Source of the DNA: an uncultured Candidatus Rokubacteria bacterium
Lineage (GTDB): Bacteria; Methylomirabilota; Methylomirabilia; Rokubacteriales; DASRDR01
Direction of reading: 5' to 3'
Assembly (NCBI GenBank): GCA_963826115.1
Contig: CAWGVS010000012.1
Location: 352,001 to 416,000 of the forward strand
Length of the DNA: 64,000 nt
Part shown: positions 1 through 19,914 of the stretch, in pieces
Layout of the letters: every line of letters starts with the position of its first letter
How positions within the stretch are numbered: the first letter of the stretch is position 1
Translations under genes and position numbers: made by a program
Notes under the pieces: model-generated
Told to the model about the DNA's origin: nothing
The model's database searches: none
Seen by the model: only the letters and a program-made list of their open reading frames with translations

Positions 1-258
<258 letters not shown>

Positions 259-322
259 GCCACCCGCCCCCGGGCGGGCGCGCGCAGTACAATACGGACG
301 CGACCCGCTCTTTGACAGACTG

Positions 323-723
<401 letters not shown>

Positions 724-901
724 TTTTCTTGTAACGACTCACAGTTACGATGCACCACCTTACAGCGGCGATCGTGAGGGACAGAACGCCCCCGCACGAA
801 AGCGCGTACCATCAAGAACGCGTGGGGTGCCGACCAGGACCCGCCCTTTTGCATACGGATCGCCCGGCCTCGGCGCTGGCAGGGACGGGCGAGGTGACCC
901 A

Positions 902-1891
902 GTGATTGACCGCCGCGCCGTGGTTGCAGGCCTTGCCCTAGGGACCCTGATGGCGCCCGGCGCTGCCCGTACCCAGCCCGCGCGCAAGATCTACCGCATC
1001 GGGATCCTCGGCAATTTCGAGGTGTCTGACGCGGCCGGGCCCCAGCCACGGAACCCTTCCACCAGCGCGTTCCTGCGCGGCTTGCGTGAGCTCGGTTACG
1101 TGTACGGCGAGCATTTCGTGACCGAGCCTCGCGGGAGCGGGGGCAATCCCTCGCGCTTCGCCGGCCTCGCCGCCGAGTTGGTCCGTCTGCAGGTAGACGT
1201 GATCGTTTCGGGCCCCGCGCTCCCTGCGCTGAAGCAGGCCACCTCGACGATCCCCATCGTCATGGCGGCGGCCGGCGACCCAGTGGGCTCGGGGTATATC
1301 CACAGCCTCGGACATCCGGGCAGGAACTTCACGGGGTTGAGCCTTCAGTCGGTAGAGACGACCGCGAAGCGTCTCGAGGTGGTCAAGCAGCTCGTCCCAG
1401 GTGTCGCGCCCGTGGCGTTCATCTGGGAGCCGAGCAGCTTCTTGTACTGGCAGGCGGCCGAAGCCGCCGCCCAGGGGCGGGGGTGGAAGCTCGTGTCGCT
1501 CGAGATTCGAGACGCTGGCGCGATCGAGGAAGCATTCAAGGCGGCCACTGACGCCCGTGCGGGCACGCTCGTCGTGAGTGGCGCTGGGGTCCTCTTCCCC
1601 CAAGCCCGGCGAGTCGCGGAGCTCGCCGCCAAGCACCAGCTCCCTGCCATGTATGAGCTCCGGGCGTATGTCGAGGCCGGGGGCCTGATCTCCTATGGCC
1701 CCGACATCATCGACATTTGGCGCCGCGCGGCCGGCTATGTAGACAAGATAATAAGGGGCGCCAGGCCTGCCGACCTGCCGGTCGAGCAGCCGACAAAGTT
1801 CGAACTGCTGATAAACCTGAAGGCGGCGAAAGCGCTCGGCCTCACGATCCCGCCCTCGGTGCTGGCGCGGGCGGACGAGGTCATCCAGTAG
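902..1891 (+). CDS. ABC transporter substrate-binding protein (PF04392 ABC_sub_bind type)
   Basis: RR-containing signal peptide, GLRELGY, TIPIVM, DPVGSG, GGLISYG and LPVEQPTKFELLINLK motifs; GTG at 902. Confidence 0.9.
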   Translation: MIDRRAVVAGLALGTLMAPGAARTQPARKIYRIGILGNFEVSDAAGPQPRNPSTSAFLRGLRELGYVYGEHFVTEPRGSGGNPSRFAGLAAELVRLQVDVIVSGPALPALKQATSTIPIVMAAAGDPVGSGYIHSLGHPGRNFTGLSLQSVETTAKRLEVVKQLVPGVAPVAFIWEPSSFLYWQAAEAAAQGRGWKLVSLEIRDAGAIEEAFKAATDARAGTLVVSGAGVLFPQARRVAELAAKHQLPAMYELRAYVEAGGLISYGPDIIDIWRRAAGYVDKIIRGARPADLPVEQPTKFELLINLKAAKALGLTIPPSVLARADEVIQ

Positions 1892-2862
1892 TGGACCGGC
1901 GAGTCTTTCTCGGCACGGTTAGCCTTAGCTTCTTCGTCGCGCCGCTCGTCCCAGACGCGCAGCCGACGGGAAGGAATCCCCGCATCGGCATCCTTCGCCC
2001 TGGCTCGCCGCCCGATCCCCTTCTTGACGCGTTCCGGCAGGGCCTTCGCGAGCTCGGCTACGAAGAGGGGCGCAACATCAGCATCGAATACCGATGGGCG
2101 GAGGGACGGGACGAACGGCTCCCGGGCCTGGCCGCCGACCTTGTTCGCCTCAAGGTGGACGTCATTGTCGCGGGCGCAGGGGCCGTGGAGGCGGCCAAGC
2201 ACGCCACCACCACGATTCCCATCGTCATGCCGGTCTCCGGCGACCCCGTGAGGGCCGGCCTCGTCGCGAGCCTCGCGCGTCCCGGTGGAAACATCACGGG
2301 GTTGACGTCTCTCTCTGGCGAGTTGCCCGGCAAGTGGATGGAACTCCTGAAGGAGATCCTCCCTCGGGTCTCTCTTCTCGCCGTCCTCTGGGATCCCGCG
2401 AGCGATCCGAGCCAAGTGAAAACCTCGGAGATCGCGGCTCGGTCTCTGGGCGTGCGCCTTCACGTGCTGAAGGTGGGTCGCGGAGGCGACTTCGAGCCCG
2501 CGTTGGCCGACGCGAGGAACCATGACGCGGGGGCGCTCATCGTCTTGGGCTCGCCATTCTTCTATGTGCACAGAACCCGCCTCGTCGAACTCGCGGCCAA
2601 GCGGCGGCTGCCGACAATCTATGCTCAGCGGGAGTTCGTCGTGGGTTCCGGCGGCCTCATGTCCTATGGAACCGACTTCCATCATCAGTTCCGGCGGGCC
2701 GCCACCTACGTAGACAAGATCCTGAAGGGCGCCAAGCCCGCGGACCTGCCAGTGGAGCAGCCCACGAAGTTCGAGATGGTGATCAACCTGAAGACCGCGA
2801 AGGCGCTCGGCCTCACGATCCCGCCCTCGGTGCTGGCGCGGGCGGATGAGGTGATCCAATGA
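1891..2862 (+). CDS. ABC transporter substrate-binding protein (PF04392 type), second tandem copy
   Basis: Same motifs; GTG start overlaps the previous TAG. Confidence 0.9.
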   Translation: MDRRVFLGTVSLSFFVAPLVPDAQPTGRNPRIGILRPGSPPDPLLDAFRQGLRELGYEEGRNISIEYRWAEGRDERLPGLAADLVRLKVDVIVAGAGAVEAAKHATTTIPIVMPVSGDPVRAGLVASLARPGGNITGLTSLSGELPGKWMELLKEILPRVSLLAVLWDPASDPSQVKTSEIAARSLGVRLHVLKVGRGGDFEPALADARNHDAGALIVLGSPFFYVHRTRLVELAAKRRLPTIYAQREFVVGSGGLMSYGTDFHHQFRRAATYVDKILKGAKPADLPVEQPTKFEMVINLKTAKALGLTIPPSVLARADEVIQ

Positions 2863-3138
2863 TAGGCCGGCGAGCCTGGCTGGCCGGCTCCCTCGGCCTG
2901 TTCGCTGCGGCACCCCGCGTCCAAGCGCAGACGGGTAACATCTACCGGATCGGGTATCTGACGGTCAACCCGGTGAACGCGCAGAACTCGTCCTCGAACC
3001 CCGGACGATTCCTCCGAGGGCTGCGTGAGCTCGGTTACATTGAGGGTCGCGACATCGTGGTCGAATACCGCAATGCTGGCGGCCGCCCCGAGCAACTCTT
3101 CGACCGGGCGTCGGAGCTCGTTCGGCTCAACGTCGATG
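2859..3138 (+). pseudogene. Third PF04392 substrate-binding protein, truncated
   Basis: ATGA overlap; homology (IGYL...GLRELGYIEGRDIVVEYR...ELVRLNVD) stops abruptly at about 3138 next to the IS21. Confidence 0.82.
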
Positions 3139-3333
3139 CGCTGCCTGGGCCGACGGCTCCGTCCATCGCGCCGCTCATTCTAGCCAGGTCCCGCCCTCCG
3201 GCGCCAGGGCCGCCGAGCCTGATGGCCAGAGGCATGCACAGGCGGAAAGGCCGGCGCTCCGATCCCAGTTTCAGGGCATCCGATGCGAGTCGCCCGGAGA
3301 CCCGGCGACGCTGGCGGACGAGCCTCGGGCGGG

Positions 3334-4088
3334 TCAGCCGTCGCTCCGCTCGGTCTGGAGCCGAGGTCCGCCAGCTCCGCGGGCCGCACGTGAGGACGTG
3401 CGCGTGGTGGAGCAGGCGGTCGAGCAAGGCGGCGACGGCGGCGGTGTCGCCGAGGAGCTTGCCCCAGTCCTCGACGGGACGGTTCGAGGTGAGGAGCGTG
3501 CGACGCGCGTTCGTAGCGGCGCATGATGATCTCGAGGAGGTCCTCGGCGGCGGTCTGGGGCAGCTTCCGCATCCCGAGGTCGTCGATGATGAGCAGCGGC
3601 ACCGTGGTGACGTGGGTCGAGGTAGGCCTTGCGGGTGCCGTCGAGCTGGGCGTCGGCGAGCTCGTCGAGGAGGACGTGGGCCTCGCGGTAGAGGACGCGG
3701 TGGCCCTGCTGGATGACGGCGAGGCCGATCGCCTGGGCGAGGTGGCTCTTGCCGGTGCCGGGGCGGCCGAGGAAGAGCGCGTCCTCGCGCTGGGCGATGA
3801 AGCGGCCGGTGGCGAGCTCGAAGACGAGGGCCCGGTTCATCTTCTTGTTGAAGTCGAAGTCGAAGGTGTCGAGGGTCTTGCCGGCGTCGCGGAAGCCGGC
3901 GTGCTTGAGGCGGCGCTCGAGCAGCCGATCCTGGCGCTGGAGCAGCTCGTCCTGGACGAGGGTGGAGAGGAAGTCGATCGGGGCCAGCTTCTCGGCCTGG
4001 GCCTGGAGGAGCCGGGCTTCGAGCCCGGCGGCCATGCCCGGAGCAGCGGAGCTGGCGCAGGGCGCGCTGCAGTTCGACGAGCGTTCAT
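3334..4088 (-). pseudogene. istB: IS21 helper ATPase IstB, frameshifted
   Basis: KTLDTFDFDFN, Walker A GRPGTGKSH, LLIIDDLG and LDRLLHHAH spread over several frames. Confidence 0.85.
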
Positions 4089-5686
4089 GAGGGGACCTCC
4101 TGGGTCTTCTGCGCGATCACGGTCGCGGTAGTGGGTGAGCTCGCGGATGAGCGGATCGACCTGGCGCAGCGTGAGCGGCGCCGCGGGGCGGCGCTCGAGG
4201 TAGCGGCGGACGAAGCGGTAGGTGGCGACGCCGCACTCCAGGGCCGCCGCGCAGGCGTCGTCGACGACGGCGGGGCCGTACTTCTTGACGAGGGCGAGGA
4301 CGCCGAGGATCCGTCGGACGCCGGGCTGCGCCGTCGCGGCGGTGGATCGCGTCGCACAGCGCGCCCGACGCCGGGCGCCGGCGCGAGTGGCGCGCGGCGA
4401 GCAGCTGCGACCGTGGTCGGCGGCGTCCGCGGCGGCTGATCCGTCGCTGGGATGGCATAGCGGCCCCGGCCGCTGGCGCACGATGCTCGCGGAGCAGCTG
4501 GCCGGTGCGCGGATCGAGCAGCCGCACCTGGCGGCCGTCCCACTGGACGGCGACCTCGCGGCCGATCCAGCCGGGCGGGGCGGCGTAGTAGGCGCCGTCG
4601 ACTTCGACGCAGCCGTCGAGGTGCACCGTGCGGGTGCCGTACCGGTAGTAGCGGAAGGGCTCGACGGGCAGCGGCAGCAGGTGCGGCCGCTCCTCGGCGA
4701 ACATGGCGGCGACCTGGCGCTTGGTGGTGCCGTGGATGCGCGTGTCGGCCCAGCGGGTCTCCCAGCGATCGAGGTAGCGCCTGGGCCTCCTCCAAGCGTC
4801 TCGAAGCGCAGGCCCTTGAGCGGCGTGGCCTGGGCGTGGCCGACGGCCGACTCGACCTTGCCCTTGCGATCGGGATCGCGGACGCGACACGGCAGGGCGA
4901 CGACGCCGTAGTGCGCGAGCACGTCGCGGTAGAGCGGGTTCAGCGCCGGATCGTAGACGTCCGGCGTGAGCACGCCCTCGCGTGAGGTTGTCGAGGACGA
5001 CGACCCGGACCGCCCCGCCGAGCCGGCGGAACGCTCTCCTCGTGCAGCTCGGCCCAGCGCCGGGCGCTCGACTCGAAGGTCAGCAGCCGGACGCTCTTAC
5101 GGCTGTAGCCCAGGGTGAAGACGAACAGCCGCGTGCGGCGGTACTTCCCGGTGCGTCGGATGCCGCACCATCGGCCCCGTCGCCGTAGTCGACCTGGCCT
5201 TCCTCGCCCGGGCGCGGTCACGATGACGGGATGCGCCTCGGGGGCCGCTGAGCCGCGGAGCTTGCGCGACGAAGCGCCGCACGCTGGCGTACCGCCCGGG
5301 GAAGCCGTGGTCGATCGACGAGGTCCTGCCAGATCGCCATGGCGTTGCGGCCCCGGGCGAGGGCCGGCTCGATCAGCTCCCGGTAGGGCTCGCAGGCGCT
5401 GGCCGTCGGGCGCCCGGCTCGGCGCGGCGGGCGGCCAGGGCGGCAGCGGGTTGCCAGACTGGCCGGACGGGCCGCCGAAGTCGGTGGACACCTGACTGGC
5501 CGGATTTGGCGCCGGCGGCCGGCGCCGGACGCGGCGAGCGCGGACCGGGATCCCGGCCGCCTTCAGGTACGCACTGGCCGTCTCGCGCCGCACGCCCGTC
5601 GCCGCTTCGATGCGGCGGAGCGGCCAGCCGAGCCGGCCCAGCGCCAGGACTTGCTGCTGCTTGTCGTCGCCCAAGATGTTCGCCAT
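4085..5686 (-). pseudogene. istA: IS21 transposase IstA, frameshifted
   Basis: N-terminal HTH (RRIEAATGVRRETASAY), LFVFTLGYSRKS, PCRVRDPDRKGKVES and RTVHLDGCVEV in different frames. Confidence 0.85.
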
Positions 5687-5858
5687 GTCGGCGGGGAGAC
5701 CACAGTCCCCTCGCCGCCGTCAACGTCTTGGGGCGCCGCTACCTCACTGGCCGGTTTTCAGGTGTCCACGACTGGCCGGTTTTGGGTGTCCACCGAGGTT
5801 TCTTTGTTTCCGAGGGCTTAGGCGGCAGTTCATAACCCTTGGACGCTCCTATCTCCAC

Positions 5859-7097
5859 TCACGCTCTCGCGGCGATGTGCTCGGCCAGATGGGTGGCGTC
5901 CTCCTCGAGGCCGTATAAGAAGGACGACTTCCGCTTGTACAGCCACTGGAGGCCAAGGAAGGAGAGGCCGGGGATCGCGGTGATACCCCGGCGGTGCGCG
6001 GGCTCGCCTCGTTCGTCGAAGATCGGCAAGTCGATCCACCGGAAGTCGGACCGGAATCCGGTCGCCCAGATGACGGCGCCGATCCCGGCCCCACGGAGAT
6101 CCAGCTCTCGAATCCCCCCTGAGGCAATCGGTGGGGACAGTTCGGGATCGCGCGGCGGCTCCTGGGGTGCATCGATCCCCGTCTTCCGGATGTACTCGTC
6201 GAAGACCTTCAGGAGACCCGTGAGCGCCTCGTCCCCGTTCGCCAGGCTCTCCTCGAGATCTGCCGCCAGGAAGAGTTTCCCGTCCCCGTAGCCCTGCAGG
6301 TGGCCGAGCAGGACGACTCCCTCGCGGGCGTACCGGCGAAGGTCGATGTCGTGGCCCCCGTTCACGCCGGTCCACAGAAGACCAGGCCTCCGCCTGGCCT
6401 CGGGAGACGGCAGACTATCGACGGTCGTCTCCATCACTGCCGGGTATCCCCAGGTCGAACTGTCACGCCCCCGATAGCGGCGCACCATCCGACGGTGGCG
6501 CCCCACGGACAGATACACGCGACGGCCGACCGCCTGGAGATCCTCAACGATCTGACAACCGGAGGTCGCGGATCCCACGACGAGGACGGAGCCGGGCGGG
6601 AGTTGGGCCGGGTTCGTATATCGGTTGGATGCAACCTGGACGACCTCGGGCGGGAATGACGCCGCGAACGGTGGGATGACCGGCTCCTGGAAGGGGCCGG
6701 TCGCGACGACGACGTTCAGGGCCTCGAGCGTGGCGTCGTCGCTTTCGACCACGAGCCGCTCCGTTCCCGGTTTCGCCCGCAGCGCCGTGACGCGCACGCC
6801 GCAGCGGAGCGGCGCCCGGATGGCCGACGCGTAGCCATTAAGGAACCGCACGACCTCGTCGCGCGTGGCGAAGGCGTCTGGATCTCCCGGGAAGGCGTGG
6901 CCCGGCATGGGCGCCGTCCAGTTTGGCGCGAGGAGCGTCAGGGAGTCCCAGCGCTCACTCCGCCAGCGCTCGGCGACGCGTCCGCGCTCCAGCACGACGT
7001 GTTCGCGGCCGAGCTGGCCAAGGTAGTAGCTCAACGCGAGCCCTGCCTGGCCCCCGCCGACTATGACGGTCTCAATGGACTCACGATGCGCGCTCAC
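5859..7097 (-). CDS. Flavin-dependent oxidoreductase / FMO-like pyridine nucleotide-disulfide oxidoreductase
   Basis: GGGQAG FAD motif, RWDSLTL, VVATG, VLVVGSATSG and VIWATGF; likely GTG at 7097. Confidence 0.85.
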   Translation of the reverse strand: MSAHRESIETVIVGGGQAGLALSYYLGQLGREHVVLERGRVAERWRSERWDSLTLLAPNWTAPMPGHAFPGDPDAFATRDEVVRFLNGYASAIRAPLRCGVRVTALRAKPGTERLVVESDDATLEALNVVVATGPFQEPVIPPFAASFPPEVVQVASNRYTNPAQLPPGSVLVVGSATSGCQIVEDLQAVGRRVYLSVGRHRRMVRRYRGRDSSTWGYPAVMETTVDSLPSPEARRRPGLLWTGVNGGHDIDLRRYAREGVVLLGHLQGYGDGKLFLAADLEESLANGDEALTGLLKVFDEYIRKTGIDAPQEPPRDPELSPPIASGGIRELDLRGAGIGAVIWATGFRSDFRWIDLPIFDERGEPAHRRGITAIPGLSFLGLQWLYKRKSSFLYGLEEDATHLAEHIAARA

Positions 7098-7227
7098 CGG
7101 ATCTTCCGCGTCCGATCCCCCACGATAGAGGTGACTACTCCCAGTGACTCCGCAATCGGAGCACCCCGGCGCCGGTCTGGGCGTCGACGACCTTCGTGTA
7201 GGCCGCCATCGTCCTAGGTCAGCGCCT

Positions 7228-8012
7228 TCAGCCTTCGAGCACGACCTCGTCGCTGATGTGGATGTCGCCCGCGCCTTCCGCGCTAAACCAACGGCCAGCG
7301 TCGGTTTCTCCTGACCAAACGCGTGGGTCAGCGTCGTCAAGATCGACCGGTCACGCTGCCCCGTCTCTGGGTTCGCGTGCGGCGCGAGGCAGCGGCCGAT
7401 GGACGTATGCACACGGAACCGCATCGAGCCAACGCGGACCGTCTTGCCGATCCAGCCTTGCTCCTCAAACGGCTCGAGACCGTCAACCGAAACGTTGGAG
7501 CGAAATCTCAACTCGCTGAGATTTGGATCGTCCAACGCCTTGCCCAACGCCCGCACACTGGCCCGGCCGTGAATCGTGACGTAACCGTCCGGCCGGTCCT
7601 GATAGCGCGGTGTGCGTCCATCGCCGACCAAACGGAGGGGCAGGCGCTCCGGGTGGCCCTTCAGGCCGCTCTCCGGCAAGTCCTTGGCGAAGTTGGCGAC
7701 GGCACCGCAGATCCGCCCACGTCCCGCTGCGTCGAGCCCGTCTTCGATCAACCGCTCACCGTCCAGGCTGATCTCTAGCCGCTGAGTTGCCTCGTCGTAG
7801 CTGAGGCGCAGGCGGGCCAGACCGGGCGTATGCATCAACACCAGCATGCCGTGCTTGCGACTCCAGGCCTCGTCCGGCTCCGGTGTATTGGCGAAGCGAA
7901 ATCCCAGCACCCGGTCACCCGCGATCCGTCCGTCGACGACAGTCAGCGACTCGCGGCGCTCTGGTGTGAAGCCCTTAACGGGGTAGCGGTACAGCGCAGC
8001 GACGGTAGCCAT
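7228..8012 (-). pseudogene. MOSC domain protein with a frameshift near its 3' end
   Basis: LYRYPVKG, GDR, LRFRSNV and GRCLA motifs; the expected ending EGAGDIHISDEVVLEG* lies in another frame (TGA at 7228-7230). Confidence 0.75.
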
Positions 8013-8256
8013 GCGCCGAGTCTAACCTCAGTCAAGCCGGCACGGGCGCTCCGTCTGAGCGCGCTCCGGTATCGCGTCTGCGGCACCGCCGCGCTTCCAG
8101 ATCACTCGGCCCAAGGGGTAGTCCGTCTACCGGAACTCGAGCAGGGTGCCGATCAGGTTATGGGCGCTCCAGATGGTTCTAGGCTCGACATCTCCCGCCC
8201 GGACGCCCTGCGAGATAAGGCAGATTCGGCGAGTAGTTAGCCGGCTCCGTGACGAT

Positions 8257-8290
8257 ACCCGGCTTACAGGCTCCCTCTGGCGCTTTTCTT
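8257..8290 (+). repeat. rnpB 3'-end direct repeat, copy 2
   Basis: 34/34 identical to 697-730; preceded by CGAT instead of the rnpB sequence CAGG. Confidence 0.92.
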
Positions 8291-8494
8291 TACTGGACGG
8301 ACCGTTACGACGCAGCGGCTTACAGGATCACAAGGGCGTACGAAAGTCCTGCACAAGCGCGTGGTACACGCCGTGGGTTCGCCACGCCCCTAGGCTCCGG
8401 CGGAGCGGTCGACAGCGCCTGGGCCGCAGCCTCCAGCGTGGGAATCGCACGTCGCATCTCCGGTTCTCGCGGGCGCCCGCGGCGCCGCGTGCAT

Positions 8495-9313
8495 CTACGG
8501 GACCGATTTCCGCCCCCAGACCTGGAGGAAGAGCGAGGAGACCACGAGCGTGCCCGGGTCGTCCAGGTGACTCCGCAGCGCGGCGGTCAGGTCGCTCAGC
8601 TCGGATTCGCTCGCGAGCCCGTCCTCGACGATTCGCGCACGCGCGTTCTCGACGAAGTCGAGGACGAGACGGCGCCGGTCGTGACCAGGCGGATAGACGT
8701 GCACCAGCGGCACCACTTCGATTTGCGTGACACCCGCCGCTCGCAACATGCGCGGCGCTCGGAGACCGAGGTTGCGGTCGATGCCCTGCCGCGCCGACGC
8801 CGACGCGAGTATCTCGACCAGCCGGTCCTGCGCCGGGTGGGGCGGATCCACGCGCTGGGTGGAGGCGACGGCCTCGTGCAAGGCCACCACCCCGCCAGGC
8901 CGGGTGAGCCGCGCCATCTCGTCGACGATCTGCTAGGGCTCCGGCACGTTCACGAGCACCAGGCGCGCCGTGGCGAGATCGAAGCTGTCGACCGGAAGAC
9001 CGGTCGCGCGGCCATCGCCGCACCACACCTCGACGTTCGCGAGTCCGTTCGCCGCGAGAAATCGGCGCGCCGAGTCGACCTGCTCCGCGTTGCGCTCGAT
9101 ACCCGTGACTCGGCCGGCCGCCCCGACGCGCTCGGCCAGTAATCCGAGACAGCCCTCGGGCCCGCAGCCGATCTCGACCACACGCCAGCCGGCCGTCACG
9201 CCGATCCGGTCGAACAGCGCCGCCGACTCGGCGGCAAGCTCCCGCGCCTGCCGCTCGAGCCGCTCCTGCTCGGCGCGCCGGTAGCCCAGGAAGTACGGAT
9301 CGGGCTCGCTCAT
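8495..9313 (-). pseudogene. Class I SAM-dependent methyltransferase with an in-frame TAG
   Basis: EQERLERQA, VEIGCGPEG, FDLATARLVL...EP*QIVDEMARLTRPGG; TAG at 8933-8935 is in frame with both halves. Confidence 0.82.
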
Positions 9314-9485
9314 CGAGCGTGGCCCCGGCTCAGAGCTTCCCCTCGCCCATGAGCTCGGCCGGATCGCGCAGCCCGCCCTTGCCGAGATAGCCGCCCACGC
9401 TCGCGATCGCGCTTCACGCAACCGCAGCGGCGAACTGCTCGAACAGGTCGCCCGGCAACGAGCGCTCGAGGCGCCCGGTGAAAGG

Positions 9486-9734
9486 TTACTGGTAGATGTT
9501 CAACGCCTTGAGGATGACGATCAGCACCACGGCGCCGAGAATGCTGACGACCCAGGCGCCTTTGGAACCCACCGCCACGATCCCAAGCCGTCCCGCCAGC
9601 CAGAAGCCGAGCACGGAGCCGATGATCCCGACGATGATGTTGGCGATGACGCCCATCTGGGCGCCGGTCTTCATGACGAGGCTGGCCAGCCATCCGATCA
9701 CTCCTCCGATAATCAGGGTCACGATGAGGCCCAT
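9486..9734 (-). CDS. GlsB/YeaQ/YmgE family stress-response membrane protein
   Basis: 82 aa Gly-rich hydrophobic protein (IIGGVIGWLAS...NIIVGIIGS); GGAGGGA RBS. Confidence 0.88.
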   Translation of the reverse strand: MGLIVTLIIGGVIGWLASLVMKTGAQMGVIANIIVGIIGSVLGFWLAGRLGIVAVGSKGAWVVSILGAVVLIVILKALNIYQ

Positions 9735-10691
9735 AGTCCCTCCCTCCGGAGACCGGGTCGTTCGAACGAGGAGTTGACGGTCAATCCTAGCTCAATTCCG
9801 CCCGGTTGCGTGGCCCGCCCGCGCGTCAGCTCGATCAGCGCCGTCACTTCGGCCACCCCGGACATCCACACGCCGTTCGCTTCCGTTCCCGCGCACGACC
9901 TATTCCCGGAACCGTTACCGGCCCGGCGCGAGAGTGAGCGCAACGTGAGAGGCAAGCGGTTCGCCTCTCGCGTGACCAACGCGAGACTTCTCCGGCAGCC
10001 CTTGCGAGAAGCATGCGCCGGTCAGTAGGCCAGGAGGCGCAAGGCCGCGTCACACATGCGGTCCACGGCCTGTCGCCGTGACTCGGACTTTCACGACCGC
10101 GAGCCGCGGGCCGATCAATCGAGCATCCATGGGAGCCGCAGGACGGCGCTGGATCCGTGGCGTAGGCATGGAATCGGTGCGGAAGGCCATCGGGCACGTT
10201 GGCCGCCGAGCTGAGGAGGGCCAGCGCATCTCTCACCCCACGGGATAGCTCCTCCTCGAAGCTCCGGGGCCCGTGCCCCTCACGTCCGATCCCCTCAGCT
10301 CCACTAACCTAGGCAACGGCACAGCCGGACCGACTGCAAGGTCGCCTGCCGTGTTGCCCTTTGATCTGGATCCCCTCCGAGAGGAACCGCCCGAAGGGGC
10401 CAGTCTGCATCTCGCGGGCACGCCTCCCTTTTGTCGACCCCTATCGCCGGGCCGTTGGGCGGGGTAGCGTCGGTGTCATACGGTGGTGGCTCGCGGAGCG
10501 CCACCCGGAACGGGAACCGGGGGCTGGAGGGTGTGTTTCTATTTCCTGGATCCTCCGCGGAGGTCCGTTCGAATGAGACCATCATGGGTACGAGGCCGCC
10601 CAGCGTCTCGGTCGCAACGACCGCCCCGCATGACACACGGCCCGGCGACACGGTCCTGGCAGGTGCGTCGACATTGGGCGTTGCTGGAGGC

Positions 10692-12110
10692 ATGAACGCA
10701 CCGAGGCGGTGGATCTCGGCCCGGGCCGGCCCTCTCACCATGGCCGGGCTCCTCCTCCTGTTCACGATCGCATGCGGTCGCTGGATGATCGTCCTCCACG
10801 AGACAGGGCACGCGGAGACGAACCATGACATCGCGTCGATCAGTCAGGCCGTCTGGAACACGTCCCAGGGCCGGCTCGGCCACGCGACCATCCTCTACGA
10901 GGGCGTCCGGGATCACCTGGAACCCGTACTCCTCGTCTACGCCCTGAACTACACGGTCGGCGGCACGGTCCACACGCTGCTCTACCTCCACGCGCTAGCG
11001 ATTGGCCTCGGCTCACTGCCGTTTTATGCATTCGGCCGCCAGCGCGGCGTCTCCGCAATGGACGCGACGCTCATGGCGACGGGTTACTTGCTCCTGCCCC
11101 CCCTGCATCGACTCATCGAGAAGGACTACTTGCGCACAGACGTGCTGCTCTTCCCGGTACTGGCGCTCCTGGCCTACGCGGTCACCGTGCGGCGCGCCCG
11201 CCTCGCGCTTGCCGCGGCCGCGCTGGCGCTATGTGTGCGGGAGTCTGGGGCGCTGGCGGTCGTAGGTCTCGGACTCCACCGGCTCTGGGTCGAACGGCGC
11301 GTCCCGTCTGGCCTGACGCTGATCGCGGTGGGCGCCCTCTGGATTCCGCTCGTGAACTACGTACTGCTACCGTGGCTTCTCGGTCACCCTACGCTGCACG
11401 CCGTCCAGTTGCGCTCGCCGACCTTGATCGCCGACCAGCTCGCGGCGCTCTGGAGGGAGCGGTGGCCCCTCGGGGTGCTGGCGGCGACCGTCCTGCTACT
11501 GCTCCGACGGCGCTGGGCGGCGCTGCTCGCCCTGGCGCCGCTGCTTGCCCTGCTCTTCTACCGGACGGTCCTCCGCTACTCCGCCACACTGTTCTCGATT
11601 GTGTGGATGAGCATCGTCGACGAGATCGCGCACTGGTCACGCCCGGGGCTGCGGCGAGCCGCACTCATCGCAGCCTCCTGCATCTTCGCGCTCGCCAACG
11701 TGGCCCTCGGCTCGTGGCGCCTCCCCTCGGAGGCAGGAATACGGGATGTCCGTCCGCTGCTTGCTCGGGTACCGCAGGCCGCCAGTGTCTGCGCCGAGTC
11801 GCGCGTGCTCGGCCACCTCTCCTTGCGAGAGCGACTCTACCAGTTCAACCGCGAGCACTACTTTCCGAAGGCGGCTCAGGCCTGCCTGGGCGCCGAGTAC
11901 TTCCTGCTGAATCGGAACGGACGAGACACGTTCTTCGCGCACCGGCTACATGAGGACCGCGCCCAGGCCTTCCGCGACGTGGAAGCTCTCGGTGTCGAAA
12001 CCGTGGCCGAGTCCGGAACCTGGGTGCTCTGGCGTCGTCGCACCCTCGAGGAGCCCCGCGCCTCAGGGGCGCCCCGGGGGACGCGGTTGGGAGGGGGCGC
12101 GGACGACTAG
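10692..12110 (+). CDS. DUF2079-like polytopic membrane protein (putative GT-C glycosyltransferase)
   Basis: DIASISQAVWNT..G, DHLEP and RES motifs, many TM segments; GGAGG RBS before ATG 10692. Confidence 0.65.
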   Translation: MNAPRRWISARAGPLTMAGLLLLFTIACGRWMIVLHETGHAETNHDIASISQAVWNTSQGRLGHATILYEGVRDHLEPVLLVYALNYTVGGTVHTLLYLHALAIGLGSLPFYAFGRQRGVSAMDATLMATGYLLLPPLHRLIEKDYLRTDVLLFPVLALLAYAVTVRRARLALAAAALALCVRESGALAVVGLGLHRLWVERRVPSGLTLIAVGALWIPLVNYVLLPWLLGHPTLHAVQLRSPTLIADQLAALWRERWPLGVLAATVLLLLRRRWAALLALAPLLALLFYRTVLRYSATLFSIVWMSIVDEIAHWSRPGLRRAALIAASCIFALANVALGSWRLPSEAGIRDVRPLLARVPQAASVCAESRVLGHLSLRERLYQFNREHYFPKAAQACLGAEYFLLNRNGRDTFFAHRLHEDRAQAFRDVEALGVETVAESGTWVLWRRRTLEEPRASGAPRGTRLGGGADD

Positions 12111-12394
12111 CTCTCGCGCAGGTCGCGAATTCGCACTCCTGCCTGTTCGGTTGGCTCCCCAACACGCCGCTGGAAGTGCCAGCGAAGGCTGGGCCGCGAC
12201 TTCCCCGCCGAGCTCGAGGACGGTTTGCGGATCGTCGAGAACGCCCCGGTCGGCGTACCCTCGCGTTCGGTCGTCGACCAGGCCCTGACGGAAGACGGTG
12301 CCCGGAGGGAATCGGGCCTTATGAGGGGCCCCGAGGTCGACAAGCCCGTCGACGGACATCCAGGTCCTACACTCTTTTTCGACCGGCCGGCGAT

Positions 12395-12428
12395 ACCCGG
12401 CTTACAGGCTCCCCTGGCGCTCTTCCTT
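12395..12428 (+). repeat. rnpB 3'-end direct repeat, copy 3 (degenerate)
   Basis: ACCCGGCTTACAGGCTCCC-CTGGCGCTCTTCCTT; preceded by CGAT as in copy 2. Confidence 0.88.
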
Positions 12429-12721
12429 CGATGCCGCGTACTTCCACGGCATCGGCTTGCAGCAGCGGCGGGCAATCCCTCGTCCGCGCGCCGGCGTATG
12501 CTGGCGACGGAGGACGCGGCCCATGCGACAGACGAAGATCGTCGTCACGCGCTACGGCGGACCGGAGGTGATCACTGTCGCCGAGCAAGAATGCCCTGCG
12601 CCCATGCCTGGCGAGGTCCGGGTGAAGGTGCTGGCCGCGGGCGTGAGCTTGCCTGACGTACTGGCGCGCGAGGGCGTCCATCCGGAAACCCCGCGCGTGC
12701 CCTATACGCCCGGTTGGGACA

Positions 12722-13866
12722 CTAGTGTCCCGTCACCGAAGTAGAGTTAATATAAGCCATGGCATGCTCCAGGAGGATCGCTATGGCCAATCGCGTGCGT
12801 CCCATCCGCGTGACCGAGGCCGACCGGCATGAACTGGAGCGGCTGCAGCGCGCGTCGTCGATGCGGGCGGGCGTCAGCCGTCGCGCCCGCGCGGTGCTCC
12901 TGATGGCGCACGGACTGTCCGGTGTCGAGGTCGCCACCCGGACGGGGTACACGGTGGTCCAGGTGAGCCGGCTGCGCCGGCGCTTCGCGGAGGGTGGGGT
13001 GGCCGGGTTGCACGAGCGGCCGCGGTCGGGGCGGCCCCCCACGCTCACCGCGCGACAGCGCGCCCGCGTCGTCGCCCTCACCCTGCGCGCGCCGGAGCCC
13101 GGGATGACCCACTGGACCACGCGCGACCTGGCCCGACGCACGGGGGTCTCGCACACGACCGTGCATCGGATCTGGAAGGCCCATGCGCTCCAGCCCCATC
13201 GGCTGACCACGTTCAAGTTCACGACCGATCCCCAGGCCGCGGAGAAGATCGAAGACGTCATCGGGCTGTATCTGCACCCGCCGACGAACGCGATCGTGCT
13301 GTGTCTCGATGAGAAGACGCAGATTCAGGCGTTGAGCCGCACGCAGCCGCTGCTCCCCCTGCGGCCGGGGCTGCCGGCCCGGCAGACCCACGACTACCGA
13401 CGCAACGGGTTGACCAGCCTGTATGCGGCGTTGGACGTGGCCAGCGGACGGGTGCTGGGGGAATGCCGGCCCCGCCACACCGGGGCCGACTTCCTGGCCT
13501 TCCTGAAACGGGTCGCCCACCGGTACCGCGGGCGCGAGTTGCATGTCGTGATGGACAATTCCTCGACGCACTCGACCCCGGCGGTGCAGGCGTGGCTCAC
13601 GGCGCATCCCACCGTGCACCTGCCCTTCACGCCCACGGGCGCCTCGTGGCTGAACATGATCGAGGCGTGGTTCGGGATCCTGACCCGGAAGTCGGTCCGC
13701 CGGGGCTCGTTCGACACCGTCCGCGCCCTGATCCAGCACATCGAGCAGTACATCGCGCACTGGAATGATCACCCAACGCCCTTCATCTGGACGAAGACCC
13801 CGGCCGACATCATCGCCAAGGCCGTCCGGCGCGGTCGTTAACATGACTTCGCGGACGGAACACTAG
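12722..13866 (+). mobile_element. IS630-family insertion sequence
   Basis: Inverted ends CTAGTGTCCCGTCACCGAAGT / ACTTCGCGGACGGAACACTAG (18/21 match), CTAG (TA) target at both sides. Confidence 0.93.
12783..13841 (+). CDS. IS630 family DDE transposase
   Basis: HTH with RSGRP, WTTRDLA, LDEK, MDNSSTH and SWLNMIE (DDE triad); AGGAGG RBS. Confidence 0.93.
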   Translation: MANRVRPIRVTEADRHELERLQRASSMRAGVSRRARAVLLMAHGLSGVEVATRTGYTVVQVSRLRRRFAEGGVAGLHERPRSGRPPTLTARQRARVVALTLRAPEPGMTHWTTRDLARRTGVSHTTVHRIWKAHALQPHRLTTFKFTTDPQAAEKIEDVIGLYLHPPTNAIVLCLDEKTQIQALSRTQPLLPLRPGLPARQTHDYRRNGLTSLYAALDVASGRVLGECRPRHTGADFLAFLKRVAHRYRGRELHVVMDNSSTHSTPAVQAWLTAHPTVHLPFTPTGASWLNMIEAWFGILTRKSVRRGSFDTVRALIQHIEQYIAHWNDHPTPFIWTKTPADIIAKAVRRGR

Positions 13867-13937
13867 TCGGCATCGTGGATCAGATCGGCGAAGGCGTCTC
13901 CGGTTTGGAACTCGGCCAGACGGTTGCGGCCATGCCG

Positions 13938-14066
13938 CGCCGCCGCCAATGCCGCCACGGTCACCGAGAGCCCGATCAGCAGCAGCTGCTGACGGCCCGT
14001 GACCCGCCAGACCGCCCGGTAGAGGTCGAACAGAGTGTCGGCCCGGTACCGCTCCTCGGCACTCAC
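13938..14066 (-). pseudogene. N-terminal fragment of a probable ABC transporter membrane subunit
   Basis: LFDLYRAVWRVTGRQQLLLIGLSVTVAALAAA resembles an ABC exporter N-terminus; it ends at the junction with the MDR remnant. Confidence 0.5.
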
Positions 14067-14345
14067 GTCCGGGCGGCGCCGGAATCGCTGGCGTTCACGC
14101 CCGACGGGGATCCAGGCTCGGTGCTCGGTCGTGACGGCGCCAAGGAGTCGGGAGCGTGTTGGCTCTCCATCACGGTGGCCCTGGCCACGCGATAGACCAC
14201 TACAGTCCTTTCATGGGGCAGGGACCGCCTCATAGTGCCACGGCGCGTCGCTGAAGTGCCCCGGCTCGGAGGGTCACCCCACGGAGGCGGGCCCCGCGCG
14301 ACGAGCCCGGGCATAGGTCCCCTGTCGTCTCGGAGGCGGCGCGGC

Positions 14346-15035
14346 TCAGGAGCTCGGCCCAGGCACCCGTCGCTTTCGCCGCTCAAGCGCGGCGTGCGCC
14401 GCGAACAGGTACCCGCGGCTCCGCTCGGCGTCGAGGCCATACGACAGGCTGCCGGGGCGGACGCGGCGGAGCGCCAGCACCTCCTCGATCATCGCGTGGC
14501 GGTGGCCGAGGTCACGGCTCCGGGCCAGCCAGTCCACCATCTCGCCTATCCGGCCCGGCTGGTCCACCACGTCCCCGATCTCGTACGCGGCCGCGTACCG
14601 GAACATGAGTGTCGTCCGCGTCCACAGGCGCCGGACCGGTCCGCCGCGGGCCGGATCGAGCGCCGCCCCGTCGGTGAAGAGCCGCGCGAGCGTGAACACA
14701 CCGGCCAGGCCCGGGTCTTCCGCGAAGCGGGCCAGCTGGCGGGCGGCCTTCGGGGGGAGCCAGAGGTCGTCGGCGTCGAGCATCGCCACGAACGGGGTCC
14801 GGACGCGGCCGAGGCCCGCCGTCGTCGCGGCCCCGGGCCCGGCGTTCGGCTGCCGGATCACGGTGATCGGTCCCGCGACGGCCGCGGCGACGGCCGCGGT
14901 CTCGTCGGTCGACCCGTCGTCGACGACGACGATCACCTCGGGGAGGAGCGTCTGGCGCAGAACGGACTCGATGGCCGGGCCGATCGTGGCCGCCGCGTTG
15001 TACGCCGGGATGACCACGGTGTACGCGCCCGTCAC
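14346..15035 (-). CDS. Glycosyltransferase family 2
   Basis: VVIPAYNAA, VVDDGSTD and LDADD; GTG overlaps the upstream stop. Confidence 0.9.
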   Translation of the reverse strand: MTGAYTVVIPAYNAAATIGPAIESVLRQTLLPEVIVVVDDGSTDETAAVAAAVAGPITVIRQPNAGPGAATTAGLGRVRTPFVAMLDADDLWLPPKAARQLARFAEDPGLAGVFTLARLFTDGAALDPARGGPVRRLWTRTTLMFRYAAAYEIGDVVDQPGRIGEMVDWLARSRDLGHRHAMIEEVLALRRVRPGSLSYGLDAERSRGYLFAAHAALERRKRRVPGPSS

Positions 15036-15796
15036 TCGCCGAACTCCTCCAGCATCGCCCCCTTCTGGAGGAAGAGCTCCGCGAAGATGGGCGGCAAGCG
15101 GGCGCGGTTCCGCAGGCGGTAGCGCACGGCCCACTTGAGGCTCGCCAGCATGAACTCGCGCTGCCGCTCCTCGACGTTCAGCGTGACGTTCGCGTCGTGG
15201 CGCCGGTAGTAGGCGGCGACTCCGTCGTCCAGCACGAGCCGGCACTCGTGTTCGATGACCCGGAGCACGAAGTCGCTGTCGCACCCCTGACGGAAGCTCT
15301 CGTCGAACCGCCCGACGCGGTCGATCGCGGCCCGGCGGTACATCGCGGCCTGGAGATACGGGCCTCGGAGGCGCTTGGTCGGGCTCCCCGCGGCCGGGGC
15401 CAGCGTCGCGTCGTCGAGCTCCCTGAACATCTCCACCATCCCGTACAGGACGTCGATCGTCGGGTCGGCCTGCAGCAGGGCGTGCTGCCGCGCGATCCGC
15501 CCCGGATAGGACACGTCGTCCGCGTCGAGGAAGGTCACGCACTCGCAGTCGGCATGCAGGTGGTCGAGCCCGGTGTTGCGCGCGGCCGCGATGCCCTTGC
15601 GGGGATTCCGGAGGAGGCGGACCTCCGGGAAGTCGCGGGCGAAGGCCTCGACGATCGTCCGGGTCCCGTCGATGGACCCGTCGTCCACCACGATCACGTC
15701 GAGGTCGACGGCCTGGCGCTCGCGGACGAGCGAGCGAAGGGCCGCCTCGATGAAGCGCGCCGCGTTGAGCGCCGGCATGATGATGCTAACCGGCAC
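15032..15796 (-). CDS. Glycosyltransferase family 2
   Basis: SIIMPALNA, VVDDGSID, ARNTG and FLDADD. Confidence 0.92.
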   Translation of the reverse strand: MPVSIIMPALNAARFIEAALRSLVRERQAVDLDVIVVDDGSIDGTRTIVEAFARDFPEVRLLRNPRKGIAAARNTGLDHLHADCECVTFLDADDVSYPGRIARQHALLQADPTIDVLYGMVEMFRELDDATLAPAAGSPTKRLRGPYLQAAMYRRAAIDRVGRFDESFRQGCDSDFVLRVIEHECRLVLDDGVAAYYRRHDANVTLNVEERQREFMLASLKWAVRYRLRNRARLPPIFAELFLQKGAMLEEFGE

Positions 15797-16877
15797 GGCT
15801 CCCCTCTCGGGCCAGGAAGGCGCCGATCGCGCCGGCGATGTCGGCCGCGTCCTCCGACAGCGTCAGGCGGAACGCGGGGAGGCGCCGCGTGAGGTCGGCC
15901 AGCAGGCGGAAGCCCTCGGCCGTGTCGCCGGGGAGCTGGAACACCCCCGACGGCGCCAGGGCCAGGGCGGCTTCCGAGGCCGTGACCCGCTCCACGGTGG
16001 TGCGGCGGGCGCGGGCGATCTCCGGGATCAGGAGCGCCGTCACCTCCATGCGCTCGACGAGCCCCTTCGGCAGATACCGCATCGCGTCGAGCTCGACCTT
16101 GCCCCGCCAGTTGACCGGGTCCGCGTCGACCGTCGCGATCGGGAGGCCCGCGCGCCGGAGCCCCTCGCGGTCCTGCTTCAGCACGGTGAAGACGGCGTGC
16201 GCCACGACGGGCGGGCCCGGGTCGACCAGCACGTAGTCGTCGCCCACGCTGTCGAGCCCGTTCACGAGTCCGGCGAGCGTCGTGGACGACTTCCCGGATC
16301 CGCTCGGGCCGGCGATCAGGGCGCCCCGTCCCTCCACCCCGAGGGTGGCCGCGTGGGTGAGGCGCAGGCCGGCCCCGGCATAGGCCCAGTGCAGGAAGAG
16401 GCGGAGCGGCGACGCGCACTCCCACGGCGCCAGGCCCAGCTCGGACGACAGCGTCTGCACGCCGATCCCGGTCGCACGGTCGTAGAACTGCCAGGCCGGC
16501 GTGTCGTGATAGTAGAAGCCCCGGAGGTTCCGGACGGCGAGAATCCGCTCGAACTGATGCGAAGAGAACGGCGTCGTCTCGTCCCACGTGGCCGGCGCCG
16601 CCCAGCCGTCCGCCGCCGCGTCCAGCGCGTAGACCTCGAGGCGCGTCGCGCCCGGGTCGTCGCGCTCACGTCTGACGAGCGTGCGCTCGCACAGCGCCGC
16701 GAGCCGAGGACTGGTGAACCAGGCCGTCACGTCGATGCGCGCCACCCGAAGGTCGCGCCGCGTCAGGCTCGCCTTCGGATAGGCGACGGCAGCATCCAGC
16801 CGGTCCCTCGCATAGGCCGGCAGGCCTAGCTCCGACACCGTGAGGGCGGGGGACCCGGACCCACCCTCCACGATCAC
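15786..16877 (-). CDS. HPr kinase-like serine kinase
   Basis: THAA, Walker A GPSGSGKSST and VGDD motifs; GTGA overlap with the PqqD gene. Confidence 0.8.
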   Translation of the reverse strand: MIVEGGSGSPALTVSELGLPAYARDRLDAAVAYPKASLTRRDLRVARIDVTAWFTSPRLAALCERTLVRRERDDPGATRLEVYALDAAADGWAAPATWDETTPFSSHQFERILAVRNLRGFYYHDTPAWQFYDRATGIGVQTLSSELGLAPWECASPLRLFLHWAYAGAGLRLTHAATLGVEGRGALIAGPSGSGKSSTTLAGLVNGLDSVGDDYVLVDPGPPVVAHAVFTVLKQDREGLRRAGLPIATVDADPVNWRGKVELDAMRYLPKGLVERMEVTALLIPEIARARRTTVERVTASEAALALAPSGVFQLPGDTAEGFRLLADLTRRLPAFRLTLSEDAADIAGAIGAFLAREGSRAG

Positions 16878-19544: not shown

Positions 19545-19580
19545 CCGGCGACCGCGCCGGCGCGGCCATCGGGACGGCGC

Positions 19581-19898: not shown

Positions 19899-19914
19899 GC
19901 GAAGCGGGGGCGCG

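What the first reader, a model, noticed from the sequence alone, without database searches (positions are those of the whole stretch)
697..12428. RNase P RNA gene used as an integration hotspot: tandem, integrase-less cargo cassettes bounded by rnpB 3'-end repeats
Seen: the last 27 nt of rnpB plus 7 nt of trailer (ACCCGGCTTACAGGCTCCCTCTGGCGCTTTTCTT, 697-730) recur exactly at 8257-8290 and with few changes at 12395-12428. Copies 2 and 3 are both preceded by CGAT where rnpB has CAGG, which fixes a common left edge of identity. The segments between repeats (about 7.5 kb and 4.1 kb) hold unrelated accessory or decaying genes and no recognisable tyrosine or serine integrase. Established: islands that integrate into tRNA/tmRNA 3' ends regenerate the gene and leave displaced 3' fragments, and tandem integration gives this geometry. 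E. coli has short tandem repeats after rnpB, but not kb-scale cargo between them. Inference: an rnpB-targeting recombinase, acting in trans or since deleted, has repeatedly inserted gene cassettes here, giving an integron-like gene-capture array at an unusual RNA target.
Basis: partly seen in the sequence, partly recalled or inferred. Interest (0 to 1): 0.85.

Follow-up and report, generated by a model that had tools for sequence, protein, structure and literature searches.

The report
Integration hotspot at RNase P gene

Summary
The 34-mer ending rnpB (697-730) recurs exactly at 8257-8290 and, with a 1-nt deletion and 2 changes, at 12395-12428. These are its only copies in the 6.24-Mb genome.

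The main inference also holds. In congeners the gap between rnpB and the next conserved gene ranges from about 0.8 kb (empty site) to about 35 kb. It is filled with different cargo, separated by same-strand rnpB-tail fragments.

A clade of Xer-like tyrosine integrases sits convergent to rnpB, about 100 nt from its 3' end, in several relatives. Most of these genes are frameshifted, truncated or reduced to stubs. The window has one such stub at 10113-10255, so its second segment is really two cassettes.

Homologous integrases occur in predicted phage contigs. There they lie beside a lone 26-nt copy of the rnpB tail, which looks like an attP.

The array is best read as serial site-specific integration at rnpB followed by integrase decay, like tandem islands at tRNA or tmRNA genes. 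Movement of integrase-less cassettes in trans is not excluded. Five of five repeat-bounded segments checked in a sister family had no integrase. True integron features are absent.

I found no paper in the held library that describes rnpB as an attachment site.

The parts
328..722 (+). rnpB, bacterial class-A RNase P RNA, full length
   Evidence: Rfam RF00010, 275.9 bits, model 1-367 of 367
697..730 (+). att copy 1 (attL-like): last 26 nt of rnpB plus 8 nt of trailer. The shared left edge across genomes is C698 (CCCGGCTTACAGG...)
731..826 (+). Left arm of cassette 1. Homologous to the rnpB trailers of G014, G011 and G003 and to the arm after copy 2. Carries a second partial core (CCTTACAG)
827..3716 (+). 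Three tandem ABC_sub_bind (PF04392) paralogs: 827-1891, 1717-2862, and a third copy (2859-3716) without a Pfam hit
   Evidence: Pfam 133 and 154 bits; ~970-nt repeat spacing (D1 and D3)
3334..5686 (-). IS21-family remnant: istB fragment 3334-4116 and istA pieces in three frames. Single copy in the genome
   Evidence: PF01695 95 bits, profile 9-146 of 238; NF033546 pieces
5859..8012 (-). 717-aa ORF joining a MOSC part (residues 1-~260) to an FAD monooxygenase part. Position 7216-7219 matches a cassette edge in G003, so cassette 1 may be composite
8100..8256 (+). Conserved right arm of cassette 1, ending ...GACGAT. Shared at 76-85% with cassettes of other cargo in G003, G008, G010 and G013
8257..8290 (+). 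att copy 2, displaced rnpB tail, 34 of 34 identical to copy 1
8495..9421 (-). SAM-methyltransferase pseudogene. TAG at 8933-8935 where G012 and G013 have Gln
9486..9791 (-). Transglycosylase-associated small membrane protein (PF04226)
10000..10079 (+). Right arm of cassette 2a (...GGTCCACGGCCTGTCGCCGT). In G012, G003 and G013 this arm abuts an intact rnpB fragment
10080..10100 (+). Degenerate, 3'-truncated fourth rnpB fragment (about 10 of 14 positions kept)
   Evidence: alignment A3; my own reading of the columns
10113..10255 (-). Tyrosine-integrase C-terminal stub (..LPHRFHAYAT.. / ..AVLRLPWMLD*), frameshifted and with an internal deletion
   Evidence: tblastn E 0.001, 13 of 19 and 9 of 11 identities to the G013 integrase; frames
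10431..12110 (+). DUF2079 membrane protein, cargo of cassette 2b
   Evidence: PF09852, 77 bits
12290..12394 (+). Right arm of cassette 2b (second arm subfamily, ...GGCGAT). Shared with cassettes in G014 and G010
12395..12428 (+). att copy 3, displaced rnpB tail with 1 deletion and 2 substitutions
12429..19911 (.). Further accessory DNA with no homolog at this locus in four congeners. Contents: start of an ADH-like gene (ADH_N match only 19.3 bits, below the 23.5-bit cut-off; ATG about 12523 to 12744) followed immediately by an IS630 transposase (12759-13841), then GT2, PqqD-domain and GT1 genes. No rnpB fragment at its far end
19912..22079 (.). Conserved synteny resumes (luciferase-like monooxygenase 20790-22079 on the minus strand)

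Best explanation
The last ~26-34 nt of rnpB, starting at CCCGGCTTACAGG, is the attachment core (attB) for a clade of small Xer-like tyrosine integrases. These integrases are carried by temperate phages and small genomic islands of Rokubacteria-type bacteria.

Each incoming element carries a copy of the rnpB tail. Integration rebuilds rnpB and pushes the older tail downstream. Repeated integration, into rnpB or into a displaced tail, has stacked at least four cassettes behind rnpB in this window.

The integrase genes, which sit at the rnpB-proximal end of each element and are convergent with rnpB, then decay or are deleted. What remains is att-bounded cargo that is now immobile in this genome.

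Shown: the repeats, their restriction to this locus, the variable arrays, an empty site, the integrases next to rnpB, and the rnpB-tail mimic in phage contigs. Inferred: that these integrases catalyse the events, and that every cassette once had its own integrase.
For: 1. Locus-restricted repeats. There are three copies in 6.24 Mb, all behind rnpB. In five genomes, 16 of 16 fragments found by a fragment HMM lie on rnpB's strand between rnpB and the next conserved gene.

2. Hypervariable gap. Upstream and downstream synteny is conserved. The rnpB-to-core distance is about 0.8 kb in G009, 3.2 kb in G012, 19.2 kb here, 31 kb in G014, 32.6 kb in G008 and 35 kb in G013.

3. Spread across the order. 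The 14-mer core occurs at least twice in 19 of the 90 genomes that have it (183 searched). The reversed-pattern control gave 2 hits in 183. Eleven genomes have same-contig, same-strand pairs.

4. Integrases at the expected place. They are convergent with rnpB and 20-180 nt from its 3' end.
- Intact: G047 type, 294 aa.
- Open frame but HxxR changed to HRFH: G036, with a 16-nt direct repeat bounding a 4.6-kb island.
- Frameshifted: G002, L086, L087, L088.
- Truncated: G013, 224 aa.
- Stubs: L089, L072, L092, L093, G008 and this window.
- Of 16 metagenome loci with a homolog, 8 have rnpB adjacent, 7 end less than 120 nt after the gene, and 1 does not.

5. attP-like sites. None of 5 viral records holds rnpB. 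Four carry one rnpB-tail core (at most 1 mismatch in 14), 90-730 nt beyond the integrase stop on the opposite strand. In L094 the match is 26 nt, identical to sister-family rnpB tails. G186 has terminase, portal and head genes.

6. Tree. A clade with 91/94 support holds the G036, G047 and G013 integrases together with viral L094, L095 and L097. It lies apart from this genome's own integrases. G047 pairs with viral L094 at 96/81.

7. Foreign composition. Cassette ORFs have GC3 of 0.77-0.82, against 0.90-0.96 for nearby core genes.
Against: Most att-bounded segments show no integrase at all.
- Cassettes 1 and 2a here keep intact arms but have no stub.
- Five of five repeat-bounded segments in the sister family have no PF00589 match. 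One of them has a perfect 54-nt repeat.

The cargo that was annotated is ordinary cellular genes, with no phage structural or conjugation genes.

Cassettes are more alike between species than the flanking core DNA. Cassette 2a is 94% and 90% identical to G012 against 85-88% for core DNA. Cassettes are 87-89% identical to G003 against 75-80%. This could mean later lateral movement without a resident integrase.

The integrase clade also has members that are not beside rnpB: G159, G106 and L067.

No recombination was observed directly. The public runs gave contigs only.
Confidence: 0.6

Rival explanations
1. Capture in trans. Many cassettes never had an integrase. They are minimal elements (left arm, cargo, right arm, core) that are inserted, excised or carried along by a phage- or island-borne Xer-like integrase supplied in trans. 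One route is excision of a composite 'phage plus neighbouring cassette' circle through distal att copies. This would give an integron-like or CIME-like gene-capture array.
For: - Five of five repeat-bounded segments in the sister family lack any PF00589 match. G174's 11-kb segment has a perfect 54-nt repeat and only a two-component system and a DDE transposase.
- Window cassettes 1 and 2a keep both arms but have no integrase trace.
- Arms are conserved between cassettes with different cargo.
- Cassettes are more similar between species than core DNA.
- The integrases lack an arm-binding domain, so short sites may suffice (the last step is inference).
Against: - A graded decay series of integrases at the expected position shows that loss in cis does happen.
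- Cassette order is compatible with vertical descent plus newer insertions next to rnpB.
- Higher cassette identity could come from homologous exchange through the conserved flanks.
- No circular or composite form was seen.
Confidence: 0.28
2. Old scars plus homologous exchange. A few ancient integrations left rnpB-tail fragments. Today's diversity comes mainly from homologous recombination, IS activity and deletions in a permissive gap, not from continuing site-specific integration.
For: - IS21 and IS630 copies lie inside the array.
- Fragment-less junctions occur at 7216-7219 and 10080, and no fragment marks the far end near 19.9 kb.
- G008's 32.6-kb gap has no displaced fragment.
Against: - Copies 1 and 2 are 34 of 34 identical, and G174 has a perfect 54-nt repeat.
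- Different genomes hold different cassettes, each with arms and fragments.
- Phage contigs carry a matching attP-like site.
Confidence: 0.07
3. Artefact or chance. The repeats are assembly joins of a metagenome-assembled genome, or a reused terminator motif unrelated to recombination.
For: The genome is a 12-contig assembly with 5.3% estimated contamination. Several short-read contigs of relatives break at or near the core.
Against: - The same architecture recurs in many independent assemblies.
- Contigs from an independent run bridge rnpB into cassette 1 and bridge copy 2 (X6 records 17 and 22).
- The motif occurs nowhere else in the genome.
- Integrases and conserved arms flank it.
Confidence: 0.03

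Closest known systems
Tandem genomic islands and prophages at the 3' ends of tRNA and tmRNA (ssrA) genes (recalled: K. P. Williams' work on integration sublocations and 'traffic at the tmRNA gene'; not read here)
   Same: A tyrosine integrase targets the 3' part of a stable-RNA gene. The element supplies a replacement tail. Displaced tails mark the borders of tandem islands. The integrase lies at the gene-proximal end.
   Different: The target is rnpB. I found no paper in the held library describing that target. The TIGER/Islander announcement, read whole, sorts sites only into tRNA/tmRNA, CDS and intergenic. Most cassettes here are small, hold non-phage cargo and lack an integrase.
CIMEs and accretion-mobilisation at ICE attachment sites in streptococci (recalled; not read here)
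   Same: att-flanked elements without recombination genes sit in tandem with, or derive from, integrase-bearing elements that use the same site.
   Different: No conjugation genes were seen. The integrase relatives are in phage-like contigs. Mobilisation in cis or in trans is untested.
Integrons
   Same: An array of cargo units separated by recombination sites beside a fixed anchor, with a simple tyrosine recombinase lacking an arm-binding domain.
   Different: No integrase gene beside the anchor in this genome. The sites are direct copies of a gene tail, not attC hairpins. Units are multi-gene and on both strands. The integrases score far below the integron-integrase cut-off (TIGR02249: 72-86 bits against 265).
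dusA-specific integrases (PMC4482086; search listing and abstract only)
   Same: An integrase family tied to one conserved host gene in many genomes, with prophages and islands as cargo.
   Different: dusA is a protein-coding gene hit at its 5' end. Here an RNA gene is hit at its 3' end, with tandem arrays.

Membership tests
Site-specific integrative island or prophage at the 3' end of a stable-RNA gene | Direct repeats made of the gene's 3' end, with the displaced copies distal and on the same strand | tested here: met
   Three copies in the window. 16 of 16 fragments in five genomes lie on rnpB's strand within the gap.
Site-specific integrative island or prophage at the 3' end of a stable-RNA gene | The target gene is regenerated intact | tested here: met
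   Full-length RF00010 match, 275.9 bits.
Site-specific integrative island or prophage at the 3' end of a stable-RNA gene | An integrase gene inside the element next to an att site | tested here: inconclusive
   The window has only a stub at 10113-10255, and no PF00589 match near the locus. The feature is met in relatives: G047 intact; G036, G002 and G013 damaged.
Site-specific integrative island or prophage at the 3' end of a stable-RNA gene | An unoccupied site in a relative | tested here: met
   In G009 contig C34, 120 nt of genuine rnpB 3' end is followed by about 790 nt and then the conserved downstream gene.
Site-specific integrative island or prophage at the 3' end of a stable-RNA gene | attP with the same core in the free element | tested here: inconclusive
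   Four viral records carry a single interior rnpB-tail core beside the integrase and no rnpB. All are linear fragments, 29-84% complete, so a provirus border is not fully excluded.
Site-specific integrative island or prophage at the 3' end of a stable-RNA gene | Observed integration or excision | not testable with these tools
   Only contigs were available for the runs found.
Integron | An intI gene adjacent to attI at the head of the array | tested here: not met
   No PF00589 match within the window's array. The related integrases are below the integron-integrase cut-off.
Integron | attC sites (imperfect inverted repeats) between mostly single-ORF cassettes in one orientation | tested here: not met
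   The separators are direct copies of the rnpB tail. Cassettes hold 1 to more than 5 genes on both strands. attC folding itself was not tested.
CIME-like integrase-less att-flanked element | Flanked by functional-looking att sites, with no recombinase, and related to integrase-bearing elements at the same site | tested here: met
   Cassettes 1 and 2a. Integrase-bearing relatives.
CIME-like integrase-less att-flanked element | Mobilisation by a helper element | not testable with these tools
   No experiment or read-level data.
Xer-like 'simple' tyrosine recombinase | Core-binding plus catalytic domains with R..K..HxxR..H..Y, and no N-terminal arm-binding domain | tested here: met
   Alignment A1. 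Best NCBIfam matches are XerC/XerD at 137-183 bits (XerC 165-183), below the 330-335-bit cut-offs, for proteins of 294-343 aa. G036 has HRFH in place of HxxR.

The most novel reading that the evidence does not exclude
In Rokubacteria the rnpB tail anchors a gene-capture platform. Integrase-less cassettes, each made of short conserved arms, cargo and a copy of the rnpB tail, are inserted, shuffled and passed between species by Xer-like integrases supplied in trans by temperate phages. This would be functionally an integron whose recombination site is the end of an essential ribozyme gene.
Probability: 0.25. Interest if true: 0.85.

Novelty: new variant of a known kind. Interest (0 to 1): 0.62.

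Why it matters
It adds the RNase P RNA gene to the short list of stable-RNA genes used as attachment sites, and it does so in an uncultured phylum that has no genetic tools.

It yields a candidate integrase-attP-attB set (G047- or L094-type integrase, 26-nt core) that can be tested directly and might be used for site-specific insertion.

It links uncultured phage contigs to hosts through an attP-rnpB match.

The excess of integrase-free cassettes with intact arms offers a tractable test of whether gene capture in trans, which is well established for integrons, also occurs at RNA-gene attachment sites.

Tried and rejected
- A fuzzy-regex scan of the whole genome timed out. It was replaced by blastn-short.
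- The search for a resident integrase found no PF00589 match in or near the array and no close homolog of the rnpB-type integrase anywhere in the genome. The best matches are 33-36% identical Xer-like genes.
- A fragment HMM found no further rnpB fragments between 12.4 and 19.9 kb.
- The G064 integrase lies convergent to rnpB, but it was dropped from the clade because it groups with an unrelated integrase of this genome. No distal repeat was found in 12 kb.
- G039 and L086 have a Xer-like gene upstream of rnpB. This is a different arrangement and was not counted.
- Homologs in G159, G106 and L067 are not beside rnpB.
- Public runs: every holder had a word share of 0.15 or less, and all were contigs. 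The four laid runs gave no test of excision or circles. The joints listed (2846 to 8169; 9827 back to 8258) come from related organisms at 90% likeness and were not used as evidence.
- Literature: eight searches and passages from six papers gave no description of rnpB as an attachment site. The TIGER/Islander note was read whole. Its database file and all supplementary files could not be seen and may list such islands as 'intergenic'. PMC7192596 is not held.
- Structure prediction, complex prediction, the protein atlas and the large protein searches were not used.
- Unpublished genomes G038, G045 and G176 enter only the tallies, with one match each. No specific claim rests on them.

Full report
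**Observation**

Rfam places a full-length class-A RNase P RNA gene at 328-722 on the plus strand (275.9 bits). Its last 26 nt plus 8 nt of trailer (697-730) recur exactly at 8257-8290 (0 of 100 shuffles matched). A third copy at 12395-12428 has one deleted T and two T>C changes. Copies 2 and 3 follow CGAT, whereas rnpB has CAGG. Similarity between copies 1 and 2 runs on to 69 nt at 83%.

The window is G000:C12:352001-416000, in a 6.24-Mb, 72%-GC, 12-contig assembly. blastn-short of the three repeat regions against all contigs found only these three places. The motif is therefore not a dispersed repeat.

**What lies between the copies**

Segment 1 (731-8256) holds:
- three tandem ABC_sub_bind paralogs;
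- an IS21 remnant, with an istB fragment and istA pieces in three frames;
- a 717-aa ORF that joins a MOSC part to an FAD-monooxygenase part.

Segment 2 (8291-12394) holds:
- a methyltransferase with a TAG at 8933-8935, where G012 and G013 have Gln;
- a small Transgly_assoc protein;
- a DUF2079 membrane protein.

ORFs in these segments have GC3 of 0.77-0.82, against 0.90-0.96 for core genes further on. No PF00589 match lies in or near the array.

A tblastn with integrases found in relatives detects a stub at about 10113-10255 on the minus strand (LPHRFHAYAT ... AVLRLPWMLD*; E 0.001). Just left of it, 10000-10079 aligns with the right arm that abuts an intact rnpB fragment in G012, G003 and G013. 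The window continues there with a degenerate, truncated fragment. Segment 2 is thus two cassettes: 2a (8291-10079) and 2b (10080-12394). Position 7216-7219 matches a cassette edge in G003, so segment 1 may also be composite.

**Relatives**

With rnpB plus trailer as query, 9 of 14 congeners show extra copies of just the rnpB tail (query positions 370/371-403). G013 has up to five on the rnpB contig.

Flanking synteny is conserved on both sides, but the gap between rnpB and the next conserved gene (window about 19912) differs greatly:

| Genome | rnpB-to-core gap |
|---|---|
| G009 | about 0.8 kb |
| G012 | 3.2 kb (one cassette, the homolog of 2a) |
| This window | 19.2 kb |
| G014 | 31 kb |
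| G008 | 32.6 kb |
| G013 | 35 kb |

G009's contig starts with 120 nt of genuine rnpB 3' end. That includes 87 nt upstream of the shared edge, so it is an unoccupied or nearly unoccupied site.

A fragment HMM finds 16 fragments in five genomes. All are on rnpB's strand and all lie inside this gap.

Across the order, the 14-mer CCCGGCTTACAGGC occurs in 90 of 183 genomes and at least twice in 19 of those 90. The reversed-pattern control gave 2 hits in 183. Eleven genomes have same-contig, same-strand pairs. In the sister family the repeats are 16 to 54 nt long and 3.3-11.1 kb apart.

The left edge of identity is the same everywhere: CCCGG. Public record titles of related contigs name them as Candidatus Rokubacteria, Rokuibacteriota or Methylomirabilota genomes assembled from metagenomes.

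**The recombinase**

PF00589 scans of ten congeners place a tyrosine integrase directly behind rnpB, convergent with it, in G013 and G002. The G013 copy is a 224-aa frame inside a 724-bp cassette. The G002 copy is frameshifted.

Homologs in the same position:
- G036: open frame, but HxxR reads HRFH. It lies inside a 4.6-kb island bounded by a 16-nt repeat.
- G047 type: 294 aa, intact.
- L072: stub.
- Metagenome contigs: 8 of 16 have rnpB adjacent. L078 and L079 are intact. L086, L087 and L088 are frameshifted. L089, L092 and L093 are stubs. Seven further contigs end less than 120 nt after the gene. One has a tRNA instead.

Together these form a decay series from intact genes to stubs of a few dozen residues.

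The proteins are Xer-like: their best NCBIfam matches are XerC at 165-183 bits against a cut-off of 335. At 294-343 aa they have no room for an arm-binding domain.

In a tree, G036, G047 and the G013 fragment fall in a clade with 91/94 support, apart from this genome's own integrases. That clade also holds members not beside rnpB (G159, G106, L067). G064's integrase is convergent with rnpB but does not belong to the clade.

**Phage link**

Seven IMG/VR loci encode homologs at 30-43% identity. None of the five records searched holds rnpB. Four carry a single rnpB-tail core, with at most 1 mismatch in 14, lying 90-730 nt beyond the integrase stop on the opposite strand. By my estimate about 0.004 such matches per locus are expected by chance.

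In L094 the match is 26 nt and identical to sister-family rnpB tails. Its integrase is sister to G047's at 96/81 support. G186 (51 kb) encodes large terminase, portal and head-protease proteins. G183 encodes primase, RuvC, ParB and an exonuclease. These are most simply read as attP sites, though all the records are incomplete linear contigs.

**Arms**

Sequences on both sides of the fragments fall into families that recur with different cargo. One is a ~160-nt right arm ending GACGAT (window 8100-8256; G003, G008, G010, G013). A second right arm ends GTCGAT (window 12290-12394; G014, G010). Left arms carry an ..ACTTACG..-like motif and often a second partial core.

**Which model**

The evidence firmly supports site-specific integration at the rnpB tail. 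Whether every cassette arrived with its own integrase is open.

For loss in cis:
- the decay series described above;
- the stub in cassette 2b.

For movement in trans:
- cassettes 1 and 2a keep their arms but show no integrase trace;
- five of five repeat-bounded segments in the sister family lack PF00589, and one of them has a perfect 54-nt repeat with only a two-component system and a transposase;
- the annotated cargo is cellular, not phage;
- cassettes are more alike between species than the flanking core DNA.

I put serial integration followed by integrase decay at about 0.6 and capture in trans at about 0.28.

**Limits**

- No recombination was observed. The runs found hold the stretch only in part and as contigs.
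- Two contigs of one independent run do bridge rnpB into cassette 1 and bridge copy 2, which argues against misassembly.
- The far end of the window's variable region (12429-19911) has no fragment, and its origin is unexplained.
- I found no paper in the held library that treats rnpB as an attachment site. Supplementary files and the TIGER/Islander data file could not be seen.
- The comparisons with tmRNA-gene traffic and with CIMEs rest on recall.

Noticed in passing
window 8316-8338 and 755-770; L047/L078 about 63 nt after the rnpB tail; G183:C1:10024-10037: A second, partial copy of the core (CGGCTTACAGG-like) sits 56-112 nt from the main core, in the arm between the core and the integrase stop. 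It appears in chromosomal and viral copies alike and may be an accessory binding site.
   Followed up: partly
window 5859-8012 (-): A 717-aa ORF fuses a MOSC protein to an FAD monooxygenase exactly where G003 has a cassette border. A read-through fusion may have formed when a fragment was lost.
   Followed up: partly
window 12523-13841: The start of an ADH-like gene (ADH_N match 19.3 bits, below the 23.5-bit Pfam cut-off) begins about 95 nt after copy 3 and is followed within 15 nt by an IS630 transposase gene (12759-13841), which may interrupt it. A second IS630 copy, 84% identical, lies on contig C10.
   Followed up: partly
G000:C12 about 350.2-352.3 kb (window -1772..255): A roughly 2-kb ORF (window -1772..255, not annotated here) lies between the conserved upstream gene and rnpB only in this genome and G013. 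The upstream side therefore also varies.
   Followed up: no
L032 13402-14109 (-) (G013): A resolvase-type serine recombinase (PF00239, 143 bits) starts about 130 nt after a displaced fragment. In G008 and elsewhere in G013, the same left arm precedes integrase stubs.
   Followed up: partly
L041 (G009:C22) 8202 and 10376: Two rnpB-tail-like fragments lie on a separate 15.8-kb contig of the genome that has the empty site. One has a sister-family-type sequence. This could be another element or bin contamination.
   Followed up: no
L108 2-714 (G039); L086 3614-4435: A Xer-like gene lies just upstream of rnpB and co-directional with it in two sister-family sequences. This arrangement differs from the convergent integrases.
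   Followed up: no
window 3500-5314: Metagenome contigs laid on the IS21 remnant differ from the window by many single-base indels, and depth there is very high. This fits a widespread IS whose copy here is frameshifted. Assembly indel errors cannot be excluded.
   Followed up: no
window 15032-19104: The distal variable DNA holds a cluster of GT2, a PqqD-domain protein with an HPr-kinase-like neighbour, and GT1. It may be a peptide- or glycan-modification set.
   Followed up: no
L037, L038, L042 (G004): Three rnpB-tail copies on three contigs are followed by nearly the same left arm. The same cassette start appears to be repeated, with assembly breaks at the core.
   Followed up: no
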